A DNA stretch of 64,000 bases from Eledone cirrhosa (lineage: Eukaryota). How positions within the stretch are numbered: the first letter of the stretch is position 1; each line of letters begins with the position of its first letter. Location: the NCBI GenBank assembly GCA_964016885.1, contig OZ024745.1:56544001-56608000 (forward strand), written 5' to 3'. Below are positions 4,750-52,188 of the stretch, in pieces. The translations under genes and the position numbers were made by a program. The notes under the pieces were generated by a model. It ran no database searches. It was not told where the DNA came from and worked only from the letters and a program-made list of their open reading frames with translations.

Positions 4750-5153
4750 TGTATGCTTAATTAAAAGCATTTTGAAGACCTTACGCTATTGTCACTTACT
4801 TAGTTTTCGACAAACAAAGGGAGAGAAGCTGACAGATCTCTGTTTCATACTGTTGTTATTCTTAAGAGATTATCACTAACCTTGTCTGTTGAAAAATTAT
4901 GAATGTTGGATTCTTATAGAATTCTAGTAATAATCCCCGGAACTGATTATAGAGAGCGGGTGACGGTCCAGCAAAAAATAAGAATCCAACATTCATAATT
5001 TTTCAACAGACAAGGGGAGTGATAAGGAATACCGACAGTATGAAACTGAGATCTGTCAGCTTATCTGCCTTTGTTTGTTGAAAAAAGAAGTGACATAGTC
5101 ACTACTTTAAAACAATAGCGGAAGGTCTTCAAAATGCTTTTAATTAGGCATAC
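4750..5153. repeat. Fold-back element with ~165-bp imperfect arms and a decayed HHR-like motif
   Basis: 4750-4917 is an inverted copy of about 4979-5153. The - strand at 4829-4868 reads CUUAAGA-stem-GAAACag(agau)cuGUC. Confidence 0.65.
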
Positions 5154-5324
5154 ACTATATATACATTCATATACACATCGCTATTTCAGAGCACCAATTC
5201 TAATGTATATATATATATATATATATATATATATATATATATATATATATATATATATATATATATATATATATATATATATATATATATATATGTATAT
5301 ATATATATATATATATATATATAT

Positions 5325-7009
5325 GGTAAATTTCTTTCAGTCGTTTGGAAGCCTCGACAATGCAGATGGGTAAATATCCGGGTAACAAGATCCAGTGGTG
5401 GAGAGAGATATGTAAATAGGTGTACGTTGAGATGCATGGGTGTATAAGACTGTAGCGTGTAGAGGAATGAAGGAAAGAGCGTAAAGGATAAAAATAAAAA
5501 TAACAACACGAGAAAGAGTTACGAGAAGGAATTGTCCCTATATATTTCGGATTCACATCCATCAACTGGGGATTTTTTCCGGGTGGGGGTGGGGGAAAGG
5601 TTGTCTGTCGGAAAGGTGCGAAACGTGTCCTCCGCTGTTCGTTGTTTTGAATATCTGAGGTATTCAGCAGAGCGCGTGTGCGCGTGAAATGGGGTCGGTC
5701 AGGCAGAGGTCAGCGGCCGAAGTAGTTCTTTCAGTTGAGGGAGTGGGGTGGCGCTAGCTGTCAGTCCATTCTCTGCCTGTTTGGTGAATGTTACTGTGTG
5801 CGTGTGCGTGTGTTGTTTTCTCGCTTGAGTGTGTGTGTGTGTGTGTGTGTGTTGTTGCCTTTTCCTCTGTATTGGCAGTGTAGTATGTTCGTTGGAATTC
5901 TACTGTGTGCATGTGTTTCTGTTTCGCTTGTGTGTGTGCGTGTGTTGCTGCATCGTTCGTTAACTTAAACCAACCACCTCATTTCGCTTCTCTCGGATCG
6001 GTTGTTTAATTGTGGCCCTAGGCGTTTGATCCAAAGTGCTTCCTTGATACGTAACGTGCCGACGTTTCTTTCTCTCGCTAGAATTGTGACAATGGGCCTT
6101 CCGTCTTTGTTTCCGCATTTGGCTATGTGTTTCCGGAAAGACGAGGCCCTGGTGTTAGTGTGTTCCTTGATCCGGATGTGCAACGGTCGGATTGTGTTAC
6201 CTATATAGGATTGGTTGCATTTGTTACATTCTATCTTATACACGACATATGTGCGTAGGCAAAAGTTCGCATGGCGCATCGGGCAGTCTCTGTGGGAGCA
6301 CGCCTCAGTTGATTTCCCGGGTTTCCTGGAGAGGCATCTTCGCAGGGATGGGCCCGAGTGTGCAAGGTGGATGTCGAGGCCCTCCCTCCGTATAGCATTG
6401 CGGATAGCGTTGGTGGTATTCTCGCCCAGGTGTGGCATTTTAATGAAGCACCTGCCTTGGGTGCCTCTCTGTCTCTTGTGTCTGGTGTCTCCTACTTTAT
6501 ATGTGAGCGAGGTAGGGTACCCGTTCGTCTCCAGCACCTCGAGGAATCGCTTGGTATGACTGACACCACTCGCGGGATCGCTGCATCTGTTTTTGATTCG
6601 CGCGATCTAGTTCGTGATGTATCCTCTTTTGGCACTGTTAGGTAGGGCGGACTTGTAGTGGACGAACAGGTCCCTGTAGGCTGCCTTTCGGTAGAAGTTG
6701 CAGTGGATCCCTCCCTGTTCCGTGATGTTGATTCCGAAATCGAGGAGAGCTTGTGACCCGTCGTCGTTGGGGTATTCAACACTGAAGTCAATGTTCTCGT
6801 CCGTGTTGTTAAACGCCTCATAGATTCTGTTCGCCATGTCTTGGGAAGATTTGAGGATGAGGATCTCGTCCACGTACCTTGAGAAAAAGGCAACAGCGTT
6901 GGGGTGGCAGGCGTTGAGCGCCTTGCGCTCGAGGCTGTCCATGTAAGAGATCGCTAGCACACCCGACAGGCTTGATCCCATGAGCAGTCACGAGGTTTGT
7001 TGCTATGTA
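5325..7009 (-). mobile_element. Penelope-like element (Neptune/Nematis-like), 5'-truncated: partial RT, GIY-YIG endonuclease and pseudo-LTR
   Basis: QQTS*LLMGSSLS, FFSRYVDEIL, YRKA..HYKSALP, a Cys-rich linker and VVYKIECNKC..YIGNTIRPLHIRIKEH; frameshifted; 3' end in (TA)n. Confidence 0.9.
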
Positions 7010-8348
7010 TAACAGTGCCAAAAGAGGATACATGACGAACGAGATCGCGCGAATCAAAAACAGATGCAGCGATCTCGCGAGTGGTGTCACTCATACGAAG
7101 CGATTCTTCGAGATGCTGGAGACGAACGGCTACCCTACCTCGCTCACAGACAGAGTAGGAGACACCAGACACTAGAAACAGAGAGGCACCCAAGGCAAGT
7201 GCTTCCTTAAAACGCCACACCTGCGCGAGAAAACCACCAACGCTATCCGCAATGCTATACGGAGGGAGAGCCTCGACATTCACCTGGCCCACTCGGGCCC
7301 CTCCCTGCGAAGATGCCTCTCCAGGAAACCCGGGTAATCAACTGATGCGTGCTCCCTCAGAGACTGCCCGATGCGCCATGCGAACTGTTGCCTACGCACA
7401 TACGTCGTGTATAAGATAGAATGTAACAAGTGCAACCAATACTATATAGGTAGAAGAATCCGGCCGTTGCACATCCGGATCAAGGAACACACTAACACCA
7501 GGGCCTCGTCTTTCCGGAAACACATAGCCAAATGCAGAAACAAAGACGGAAGGCCCATTGTCACAATTCTAGCGAAAGAAAGAAACGTCGGCATGTTACG
7601 TATCAAGGAAGCACTTTGGATGAAACGCATAGGGCCACAATTAAACAACCGATCCGAGAGAAGCGAAATGAGGTGGTTGGTTTAAGTTAATAAACGATGC
7701 AGCAACACACGCGCGCACACACACACACGGTAGCATTCCACCATACGAACATACTACACTGCCAATACAGAGGAACAAGGCAACAACACACGCACACACA
7801 TACTCAAGCGAGACAACAACACACGCACACACACACAGTAACATTCACTAAACAGGCAGTGAATGGACTGACAGCTAGCGCCACCCCACTCCCACAATTG
7901 AAAGAACTACTTCGGCCGCTAACATCTGCCTGACCGACCCCATTTCACGCGCACACGCGCTATGCTGAATACCTCAGATATTCAAAATAACGAACAACGG
8001 AGGACACGTTTCGCACCTTTCCGACAACCCCCCCACCCCGAAATAACCCCAGTTGATGGATGTGAGGATGTGAATCCGAAATATATAGGGACAATTAAAT
8101 CTCTCCCAAGGTAACTCTTTCTCGTGTTGTTATTTTTATTTTTATCCTTTACGCTCTTTCCTTCATTTCTCTACACGCTACAGTCTTATACACCCACGCA
8201 TATCAACGTACACCCAGTTACATCTCTCTCTTCACCACCGGATCTTGTTACCCGGAGATTTACCCATCTGCATTGTCGAGGCTTCCAAACGACTTAAAGA
8301 AATTTACCTTATTATTCCACAATGCGTCAAGAAAACTTCAATACTCTC
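7010..8348 (+). mobile_element. Inverted second arm of the same PLE
   Basis: Diverged reverse complement of about 5325-6639 (ORF 7371-7685 is the GIY-YIG part), with a ~40-nt extra 3' tail before (TA)n. Confidence 0.9.
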
Positions 8349-8400
8349 ATATATATATATATATATATATATATATATATATATATATATATATATATAT

Positions 8401-50558: not shown

Positions 50559-50852
50559 ATATATATATATATATATATATATATATGTATATATATATGT
50601 ATATATATATATGCATATATATATATATATATATATATATATATATATATATATATATATATATATATATATATATATATATATATATATATATATATAT
50701 ATATATATATATATATATATATATATATATATATATATATATATATATATATATATATATATATATATATATATATATATATATATATATATATATATAT
50801 ATATATATATATATATATATATATATATATATATGTATATATATATATATAT
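50559..50852. repeat. Long (TA)n microsatellite (one of dozens)
   Basis: Direct reading. Confidence 0.95.
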
Positions 50853-51247
50853 AAGAAGTAACACAACAGTTAGTTCACCATACCGAGAACAATTACCTTC
50901 CAGTGTTCTACCTCTCTCTCACTCTTTCTTTCTTTTTCTCTCTCTCTCTCTCTCTCTCTCCATATATATATATATATATATATATATATATATATATATA
51001 TATATATATATATACACACACACACACACACACACACATATATATATATATATATATATAATATTAAAGATACTATTTATAGCTATGTATATACTATACT
51101 ATAGACAACTATAAACAGGGAAGGTCAGTAATTTATTACTACCTTATTACCAGTAAGATAAATAGTTCGATGTAAGAATATCAGTTGTTTTACAGAGCAG
51201 TAATATTGAATACACAAGAATCAAAGCTATGTATAAAACATTTAATC

Positions 51248-51292
51248 GCTGACAATTGTTTCTTCCAAACCTAGGCTTGGGGTCTTCGGAGC
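51248..51292 (-). ncRNA. HHR variant (U4 to C)
   Basis: gcu-CCGAAGA-(ccaagc/guuugg)-GAAAC-aauu-GUC-agc; palindromic acaauugu. Confidence 0.6.
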
Positions 51293-51575
51293 ATTATTAA
51301 TGTCTGTACACACAATTGACCTCCTATTCAACTGAGGAATCATACAGATACATATATATTGACAACAGTTTCATGTTTACAGTGTGGAATGGATGCGACA
51401 TATATTATATTATACTATAATTGTACAATAATTCAAATTAAAATCAAAATTAAATTTAAATTTAAAAGCATTGGGTGGAATACATGGGACAATTAATACA
51501 AGAGAATAGTCTGATAACTAAATTAAATATATATATTAAATAAAATAAATATGTATATATATATATATATATTAG

Positions 51576-52188
51576 ATAGAAATGGCTTCTACAAGACTAG
51601 AACTGTTTCATTCGAAGGAAATCATCAGGAAAGCCGAGTGTCAATATGTCATGGTGGTATTCTTACATTTTCTGGTGGTAGGGAAAGGTGGTGATTGGCA
51701 TGGGTGGTCTTCCTTGTCTCGTGGATTTAAAGAATGGGGATTCTTTGAAAAAAACTATACATAGAGAAAAAATATATATGTATATATACATATGTGTGTG
51801 TGTGTGTTTGTGTGTGTATGTATGTATGTGTGTGTATGTGTTTGTGTGAGTGTGATTGTAAACACCTGACCATTTTGCAGGCTTTAATACAGTATGTTAA
51901 TGCACCAAACTGAATGAAAACTCTTTGATGAGAATATATGAACCTTGAAAATGAGGACTGACTGCAATTTTATCATTCTGTATCACTATGTATTTTTCTC
52001 CAAGTATAGTTTTCTCAAAGAATCCCCATTCTTTTAAAACCATTAGCCAATGACCTCCACCCATCCCAATCACCACCTCCCCCTACCACCATAAAATGTA
52101 TAAATACCACCATAACACATTGTCAATCGACTTTCCTGATGATTTCCTTCGAATGAAACAGTTCTAGTCCTGTAGAAGCCAATTCTAT
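51576..52188. mobile_element. Inverted-arm element (~190-bp arms) with outward-facing HHRs at 51584-51635 (-) and 52129-52180 (+)
   Basis: ctttc-CTGATGA-tttccttcgaat-GAAACag(ttctagtc)ct-GTA-gaagcc on the right arm and its mirror on the left. Confidence 0.75.

What the first reader, a model, noticed from the sequence alone, without database searches (positions are those of the whole stretch)
4750..52188. Window-wide ribozyme retro-system: about 10 HHR families share one insertion design in (TA)n
Seen: about 30 near-canonical HHR motifs plus several decayed ones. In the paired insertions (5325, 8401, 31553, 34061, 42311, 46870, 51576) the left arm is - strand and the right arm is + strand, the 3' ends lie at or next to TA repeats, and one arm usually has a 40-105-nt extra tail. 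Known: PLE pseudo-LTRs carry minimal type I HHRs, and Penelope makes inverted 5' repeats with a short tail. Inference: PLE enzymes prime cDNA from both ends of a break in (TA)n and mobilise many non-coding HHR RNAs. This could also explain the many microsatellite-flanked palindromes.
Basis: partly seen in the sequence, partly recalled or inferred. Interest (0 to 1): 0.75.

Follow-up and report, generated by a model that had tools for sequence, protein, structure and literature searches.

The report
Penelope retrotransposons primed from both ends
These ribozyme-bearing repeats are mostly the cut-short ends of ordinary Penelope-like jumping genes inserted head-to-head in TA repeats, but almost every pair has exactly one long-ended and one short-ended arm, which likely means both ends of the cut DNA copy the same RNA and gives a testable answer to how these elements insert.

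Summary
Observation confirmed. The scan finds 33 hammerhead-like motifs against 0.3 in shuffles; 14 are one 466-bp array. All seven named insertions are head-to-head pairs with one tailed arm. Outside the window, same-family pairs are 14 divergent to 1 convergent, 430 of 502 arm ends abut (TA)n, and 87 of 94 classifiable pairs join one short-ended (P) and one tailed (D) arm. The interpretation needs correcting: five of the seven paired families, plus the solo one at 43923, continue upstream into RT/GIY-YIG ORFs in other copies. They are 5'-truncated autonomous Penelope-like elements (four Hydra-type), not non-coding RNAs. Only the 466-bp array behaves as a non-coding retrozyme; 51576 is unresolved. 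Inverted copy, one-sided tail, (TA)n targeting, pLTR hammerheads and PLE-derived retrozymes are published. Not found in print: the near-strict P+D rule, arms closer to each other than to other copies (55 of 62), and D arms tending to stop at the P site. These favour twin priming on one RNA over the published self-priming idea; inferred, no RNA data. This scan noted related things before, in this genome and another. New member of a known kind; interest 0.45.

The parts
5325..8348 (.). Family A head-to-head PLE pair; left arm (-) ends at the proximal site and carries RT and GIY-YIG fragments (5968-6987), right arm (+, from about 7010) carries GIY-YIG and the tail; hammerheads with a variant core at 5568 (-) and 8050 (+)
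8309..8348 (+). Family A tail (about 40 nt)
8402..8985 (.). Family B pair (truncated Hydra-type PLE); left arm tailed (8402-8493), right arm proximal; hammerheads 8556 (-, damaged) and 8923 (+)
13952..14495 (.). Head-to-head junction of a tailed B arm (-, to about 14252) with a tailed J-like arm (+, from about 14257): two different families
14769..15268 (-). Solo tailed arm of family G
19413..19768 (+). Solo proximal G arm followed directly by a short proximal B arm
19865..20028 (-). Solo family E arm between two TA tracts, hammerhead at 19960; relative at 22838
28195..28957 (-). Family F, two direct copies with hammerheads at 28325 and 28848; coding link not found (4 copies sampled)
29142..29382 (.). 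Small H-family pair; the tailed arm stops at the proximal site
31553..32184 (.). Family G palindromic pair (truncated Neptune-like PLE), arms identical, right arm tailed (32128-32184); hammerheads 31767 (-) and 31913 (+)
33155..33335 (.). Small B pair, left proximal, right tailed; hammerhead 33220 (-)
34060..40541 (.). Family H non-coding retrozyme array: 6 units on - then 8 on +, 466-bp unit, units identical, left end proximal, right end tailed (40483-40541)
40850..42187 (+). Solo proximal arm of family A with GIY-YIG ORF; damaged hammerhead at 41953
42312..43354 (.). Family I pair (truncated Hydra-type PLE with about 1.75-kb 3' UTR); left arm tailed (42312-42414); hammerheads 42496 (-) and 43273 (+)
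43825..46795 (-). Family J Hydra-type PLE, 5'-truncated, RT/linker/EN at 45353-46782 (one frameshift, one stop), long 3' UTR, hammerhead 43923, proximal end at (TA)n
46870..48600 (.). Family K pair (truncated Hydra-type PLE); short tailed left arm, 1.5-kb right arm starting in the EN C-terminus; hammerheads 47052 (-, damaged) and 48492 (+)
51573..52260 (.). Family M pair, older (arms about 87% alike); left proximal in TA, right tailed ending in (CA)n; hammerheads 51628 (-) and 52136 (+); coding link not found
4750..5154 (.). Decayed palindrome whose relatives elsewhere carry intact hammerheads, one as a 314-bp tandem
9962..10001 (+). Solo hammerhead-like motif, family C
10503..10552 (-). Solo hammerhead-like motif, family D
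51251..51289 (-). Solo hammerhead-like motif, family L

Best explanation
These are head-to-head insertions of several Penelope-like retrotransposon families in (TA)n, each likely made when both ends of the cut DNA prime reverse transcription at two fixed internal sites, probably on one RNA molecule. Shown: the head-to-head layout, the two fixed 3' end points (P and D, 40-103 nt apart), their one-each pairing, TA flanks and coding parents. Inferred: the GIY-YIG enzyme cuts both strands of (TA)n; because (TA)n is its own complement, both 3' ends can anneal to short UA-rich runs at P and D; the D-primed cDNA often stalls at the P-primed one or displaces it; the two truncated cDNA ends are joined by short microhomology. 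A long P or D arm gives the classic full element with an inverted 5' pLTR; two short arms give a palindrome. The non-coding 466-bp unit would borrow the same machinery, likely from a circular or multimeric RNA.
For: 3' ends are bimodal in A, B, G, I, J, K, H and M. Of 96 distinct pairs, 87 are P+D, 4 D+D, 3 P+P, 2 unclassified (p=1e-18 against 50%); pairs met by chance beside other queries are 33 of 36 P+D; the one E 'D+D' pair is P+D on inspection. Tail-only queries: of 28 K tailed arms 21 had a P partner and 1 a D partner; of 28 I arms 4 had a P partner and none a D partner. Neither arm can be a plain copy of the other: the tail is missing from P arms, and the P arm reaches further 5' in 43 of 87 pairs, 11 of 27 in the tail-query set; in 17 of 87 the D arm lies in the tail or within 15 nt of P. 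In L196 one arm reads through pLTR, tail, ORF and second pLTR while the other is a short inverted pLTR. Arms are closer to each other than to other insertions in 55 of 62 pairs (median 1.45 vs 3.75%); 14 H units are identical across both arms. D arms stop near P at 3.2 times the rate elsewhere (11 in 1303 nt vs 15 in 5599, p=0.005). Read-through copies show TA-type runs right after D in J, G and B and after P in J, K, B, G, E. Centre overlaps are mostly 0-8 nt. In vitro, a Poseidon PLE nicks and extends both strands, starts at two sites that bound the tail, and is predicted to dimerise (PMC11167929).
Against: No RNA or biochemical data here. The stop at P is significant in I (p=0.005) but not K alone (p=0.20), was weak in the first pair set (8 vs 3-6 per bin), and a folded RNA barrier would give it too. 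Arm similarity is also expected from fold-back, from two RNAs of one source locus, or from gene conversion, and mixing old and young subfamilies inflates the between-copy figure; B shows no such effect (2 of 5). 287 arms found no partner under my rule: 29 at locus edges, 43 with TA directly 5', 215 other, so many insertions are solo or unresolved. The TA runs at P and D are 2-6 nt, and 25% of positions in these regions lie in a run of 3 or more; A shows almost none; PMC11167929 reports initiation without homology to the target. 7 pairs are D+D or P+P, and 13952-14495 joins two families, so two-RNA events may occur.
Confidence: 0.6

Rival explanations
1. Both DNA ends prime, but on two separate RNA molecules held by an asymmetric dimer in which one subunit is set at P and the other at D.
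For: Explains the P+D rule and non-nested arms equally well; allows the 7 same-type pairs and the two-family junction at 13952-14495; dimer predicted in PMC11167929.
Against: Does not by itself predict that D arms stop at P or that arms share private variants, unless both RNAs come from one locus and P is a structural barrier. No cross-family junction among the seven reference families (0).
Confidence: 0.22
2. Self-priming or fold-back: one strand is made from D, folds back and is copied, the endonuclease resolves it at P, and later asymmetric deletions of the palindrome centre hide the nesting.
For: Proposed as self-priming on an antisense template in PMC3846280 (passages); tail ascribed to EN-mediated resolution in PMC8557442 (passages). 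Predicts P+D and identical arms; 33 of 87 pairs have equal 5' reach.
Against: P arm longer than D in 43 of 87 and 11 of 27 pairs, some by more than 1 kb in copies 93-99% like the family; tail-only D arms; L196 read-through arm cannot be a copy of its partner.
Confidence: 0.13
3. The pairs are independent insertions piling into the same TA tracts, or long-read fold-back assembly artefacts.
For: TA tracts are very dense and nested insertions are common; short-read contigs did not bridge the two junctions tried.
Against: Arms meet at their 5' ends with no TA between, are of one family, are divergent 14 to 1, and follow a P+D rule; arms differ by up to 13% in old pairs, which a read artefact would not give.
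Confidence: 0.05

Closest known systems
EN+ Penelope-like elements, general structure and Hydra clade (Craig et al. 2021, PMC8557442; passages and the Hydra section read)
   Same: Inverted 5'-truncated copy at the 5' end, tail often at one end only, hammerhead in the pLTR, (TA)n targets; families B, I, J, K carry the Hydra linker and EN motifs, J also the N-terminal ones.
   Different: Tails of 40-103 nt rather than 30-40; 3' UTRs up to about 1.75 kb; Hydra is very abundant here (55,951 first-look candidates for one EN); the one-tail rule is counted rather than described.
PAc Poseidon element in vitro (Frangieh et al. 2024, PMC11167929; parts 1-2 of 4 read)
   Same: Two internal RT start sites bounding the tail; both strands nicked and extended; AT-rich target.
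   Different: They saw no difference in start site between strands and no homology to the target, and left later steps open; here each insertion uses each site once and the sites carry short TA-type runs. In J both sites lie upstream of the ORF start, not inside it.
Minimal hammerheads of metazoan PLEs (Cervera and de la Pena 2014, PMC4209133; parts 1-2 of 4 read)
   Same: Type I fold, short palindromic helix III, extra base before helix II, many families per genome, opposite-strand pairs 100-700 bp apart ascribed to truncated PLEs.
   Different: A and B carry conserved core variants (U4 to A; A also at position 6), activity untested.
Metazoan non-LTR retrozymes (Cervera and de la Pena 2020, PMC7229834, passages; Li et al. 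2026, 10.64898/2026.07.22.740005, parts 1-3 of 5)
   Same: The 466-bp family is a non-coding tandem repeat with one type I hammerhead per unit; PLE mobilisation is proposed in both papers.
   Different: Here the array itself has the PLE insertion signature (inverted arms, P and D ends, TA flanks); no parent PLE pLTR was found for it.
LINE-1 twin priming (recalled from memory, not read)
   Same: Both target ends prime on one RNA, giving an inverted 5' part and microhomology at the junction.
   Different: In L1 the second primer lands at variable places and the two parts barely overlap; here both sites are fixed and the arms usually overlap.

Membership tests
EN+ Penelope-like elements | Single ORF with RT and C-terminal GIY-YIG EN | tested here: met
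   A: Pfam RVT_1 and GIY-YIG. J: 750-aa ORF with YxDD and GIY-YIG-type motifs, but no Pfam RT or EN hit. G, B, I, K: RT and/or EN by tblastn and motifs. Not met for H; not found for M.
EN+ Penelope-like elements | pLTR-ORF-pLTR partial tandem with inverted 5' copy | tested here: met
   L196 (direct plus inverted pLTR), L197 (direct), L193 and L194 (inverted) for J.
EN+ Penelope-like elements | [quoted passage not shown] | tested here: met
   87 of 94 classifiable pairs; 7 of 7 named window pairs.
EN+ Penelope-like elements | Target-site duplication | tested here: inconclusive
   Cannot be read inside (TA)n.
Hydra clade | RWK-like and DKT motifs; CxCX5C linker; CxxC and CxH in EN; no CCHH; canonical hammerhead; (TA)n target | tested here: met
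   J: RWR, DKT, CxxC...CxH, CxCX5C in the window copy (one Cys changed in L193). I and K: CxCX5C and CxxC...CxH. B: CxCX5C and CxH. N-terminal motifs were seen in J only.
Hydra clade | Placement in an RT phylogeny with reference Hydra elements | not tested
   No reference set held; B, I, J RT fragments are 43-50% identical to each other and give no significant match to A or G.
Neptune clade (family G) | CX2-5CxxC linker before a C-terminal EN | tested here: met
   CX4CxxC present; phylogeny not tested, so 'Neptune-like' only.
Type I / minimal hammerhead ribozyme | Core boxes plus helices I-III in type I order | tested here: met
   33 hits vs 0.3 shuffled; A and B have core variants; 31479 and 49065 have both boxes but no type I closure.
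Type I / minimal hammerhead ribozyme | Self-cleavage | not testable with these tools
   Needs in vitro assay.
Non-LTR retrozyme (family H) | Non-coding tandem units, each with a type I hammerhead | tested here: met
   14 identical 466-bp units; 0 of 78 copies with an upstream PLE ORF.
Non-LTR retrozyme (family H) | Expressed as circular RNA | not testable with these tools
   No RNA run listed for the one stretch searched, a J pLTR junction; H itself was not searched.

The most novel reading that the evidence does not exclude
Penelope-like elements insert by fixed-site twin priming: one RNA is anchored at two short UA-rich sites to both ends of a self-complementary (TA)n break, telomerase-style, so each insertion uses each site once. 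The rule holds across three divergent PLE lineages and is borrowed unchanged by a circular non-coding retrozyme copied in both directions, which would explain tail, inverted pLTR, microsatellite bias and retrozyme arrays with one mechanism.
Probability: 0.4. Interest if true: 0.72.

Novelty: new member of a known kind. Interest (0 to 1): 0.45.

Why it matters
How PLEs make inverted repeats, one-sided tails and microsatellite bias is called open in PMC8557442 and PMC11167929. This genome supplies hundreds to thousands of young copies per family, near-intact ORFs (J, 678-750 aa) and a sharp rule (one P end, one D end) that separates twin priming from self-priming and names the sites to mutate. 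It also warns annotators that short HHR palindromes in (TA)n can be truncated PLEs rather than MITEs, SINEs or miRNA hairpins (the 31553 centre scored against miRNA models below their thresholds). The elements themselves are not a new system.

Tried and rejected
Rfam scan: no hammerhead among the 150 of 220 rows shown, only sub-threshold hairpin matches. First strict scanner missed minimal motifs (4 hits). Own-genome DNA searches for J and H returned nothing because common words are skipped; not evidence of rarity. RNA evidence: no RNA holder listed. Short-read contigs X1-X3 (one sample, one study) did not bridge the junctions at 47086 or about 7000; uninformative. A shared 5' end at 47086 in K looked like a defined non-coding element but is only where the window copy stops; other copies run on into EN. 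One palindromic master for the G palindromes: rejected as less likely because the 16 centres differ in run length and junction base, though slippage could do the same. A-to-G editing bias between arms of 10 window pairs: none evident. Parent PLE for H: none found in the sequence held. Coding link for M: none in 30 loci plus 5 longer stretches. MFE folds of the cleavage-to-D region gave no shared structure. Pfam did not recognise the Hydra-type ORFs.
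Full report
Setting. The window is G000:C5:56544001-56608000 of a 3.0-Gb genome, 37% GC and dense in (TA)n. The only homologue of a full-length element ORF with an organism name among the 120 listed is from Argonauta hians, so an octopod host is a reasonable inference; I did not test it further.

Observation. My type I hammerhead scanner finds 33 motifs at score >=6.5 against 0.3 in 30 shuffles. Fourteen are one 466-bp array; the rest fall into about a dozen families. 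All seven named insertions are inverted pairs with the left arm on - and the right on +, and each has one arm longer at its 3' end by 40-103 nt. In 600 kb taken blind from six contigs the scan gave 100 hits, 14 of them a C7 satellite that I dropped. Same-family opposite-strand neighbours were 14 divergent and 1 convergent, and (TA)6 lay a median 150 nt downstream of the cleavage site versus 381 upstream and 919 from random points (n=57, H family dropped). Across all loci held at that point, 430 of 502 arm ends had (TA)3 within 6 nt, against 3-14% of random positions.

What the families are. A contains RT and GIY-YIG fragments in the window. J's hammerhead at 43923 ends an RT/EN ORF 1.4 kb upstream, and other copies carry 678-750-aa ORFs. 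K, B, G and I look non-coding in the window but continue into PLE RT or EN in other copies. B, I, J and K carry the Hydra motifs listed in PMC8557442 (section read). G has a Neptune-type linker, and A is a third lineage; their RTs give no significant match to the Hydra-type ones. H is different: none of 78 sampled copies has a PLE ORF upstream and it forms tandem arrays, as non-LTR retrozymes do. M and F are unresolved; E has one coding link.

The rule. Arm 3' ends fall at two fixed points per family, P and D, in near-equal numbers. Of 109 head-to-head junctions, 102 remained after exact duplicates and 96 after near-duplicates were removed (one removal may be wrong); 87 are P+D, 4 D+D, 3 P+P, 2 unclassified. 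Fourteen of the G pairs came from a query centred on a palindrome, and K, B and I queries included the P end, so I checked two less biased sets: pairs met as bystanders (33 of 36 P+D) and tail-only queries (K: 21 P, 1 D, 6 other or none of 28; I: 4 P, 0 D, 24 unresolved, solo or off the locus edge of 28). Against this, 287 arms had no partner by my rule, including the window's own A and B pairs where the alignment chain broke.

Mechanism. The P arm lacks the tail, so D is not a copy of P. The P arm reaches further 5' in 43 of 87 pairs (D in 11, equal in 33) and 11 of 27 in the tail-query set, and L196 has a full pLTR-ORF-pLTR arm opposite a short inverted pLTR, so P is often not a copy of D. 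Both arms are therefore likely RNA-templated, one from each DNA end. Three things point to one RNA: each site is used once; arms are closer to each other than to other insertions (55 of 62); and D arms stop near P about three times more often than elsewhere (p=0.005 pooled, I significant, K not; weak). None of these is decisive: an asymmetric dimer on two RNAs from one locus, gene conversion or an RNA barrier could mimic them. Read-through copies show short TA-type runs after both sites in J and after one or both in K, B, G and E, which would let the self-complementary (TA)n ends anneal, but such runs are common in these regions. Many K arms stop about 124 nt upstream of the cleavage site whatever their partner, which may be the RNA start; untested. 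In the window's H array all units of both arms are identical, with P on the left and D on the right, as expected if a circle or multimer was copied from both ends in one event; recent local amplification or assembly polishing could also equalise them.

Known versus new. Inverted 5'-truncated copies, a tail at one end and (TA)n bias are in PMC8557442 (passages); two RT start sites bounding the tail and extension of both strands are in PMC11167929 (parts 1-2 of 4); opposite-strand hammerhead pairs are in PMC4209133 (parts 1-2 of 4); PLE-mobilised retrozymes are proposed in PMC7229834 (passages) and 10.64898/2026.07.22.740005 (parts 1-3 of 5); self-priming is the model in PMC3846280 (passages). 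An Octopus vulgaris repeat paper lists active Penelope families and does not mention hammerheads (PMC13282606, term search of the main text). I found no paper stating twin priming or a one-P-one-D rule for PLEs in searches (open-licence library only; one search gave two papers seen as listings; older subscription reviews and all supplements unseen). L1 twin priming is recalled, not read. Earlier notes of this scan reached similar readings on other DNA; I looked them up after my own pair counts and do not count them as support.

Verdict. Real and well above chance, but largely known PLE biology. The value lies in the counted rule and the specific, testable mechanism it favours. New member of a known kind; interest 0.45; novel case probability 0.4.

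Noticed in passing
window 13952-14495: Tailed B arm (-) joined head-to-head, about 5 nt apart and with no TA between, to a tailed arm of a J-like family (+): a possible two-RNA, two-family event, or a nested insertion.
   Followed up: partly
window 31440-31543 and 32245-32305; also 49065 (-): Motifs with both hammerhead core boxes but no type I closure; the first forms a convergent pair around the 31553 insertion. Earlier notes describe scrambled hammerheads in this genome; not tested on these.
   Followed up: no
window 5568, 8050, 41953 (A) and 8923, 33220 (B): Family-wide hammerhead core variants (U4 to A; in A also position 6) with intact helices; activity unknown.
   Followed up: partly
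L044-L045 (G000:C3, about 200,075,000-200,085,000): H-family array whose right-arm units alternate in internal TA length, a two-unit higher-order repeat that could reflect a dimeric template.
   Followed up: no
K family, many loci (L078, L082, L085, L319, L325 and others): 5' ends pile up about 124 nt upstream of the cleavage site regardless of partner; candidate transcription start or strong RT stop.
   Followed up: partly
L350, L354, L355, L358, L360, L372: Tailed I arms joined at their 5' end directly to TA; several stop at the P site, as if the second primer annealed but was not extended.
   Followed up: partly
G000 whole: One Hydra-type EN query gave 55,951 first-look candidates and 150 scored hits at 90-100% identity: a very large, young expansion of a clade described from few families.
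   Followed up: partly
window 10868-11070 and 15433-15620: Very frequent short TA-flanked repeats (50 and 96 sampled sequences hit) with no consistent hammerhead nearby; identity not determined.
   Followed up: partly
window 53903-63999; 2887-3816; 3901-4503: Several AP-endonuclease/RT LINE fragments, another RT fragment, and a probable Tc1/mariner-type remnant (label recalled from the sequence, no Pfam hit); unrelated to the finding.
   Followed up: no
L057-L066 (G000:C7:30,000,001-30,100,000): A 20% GC satellite block with no (TA)6 tract and a repeated low-scoring hammerhead-like match, treated as background.
   Followed up: no
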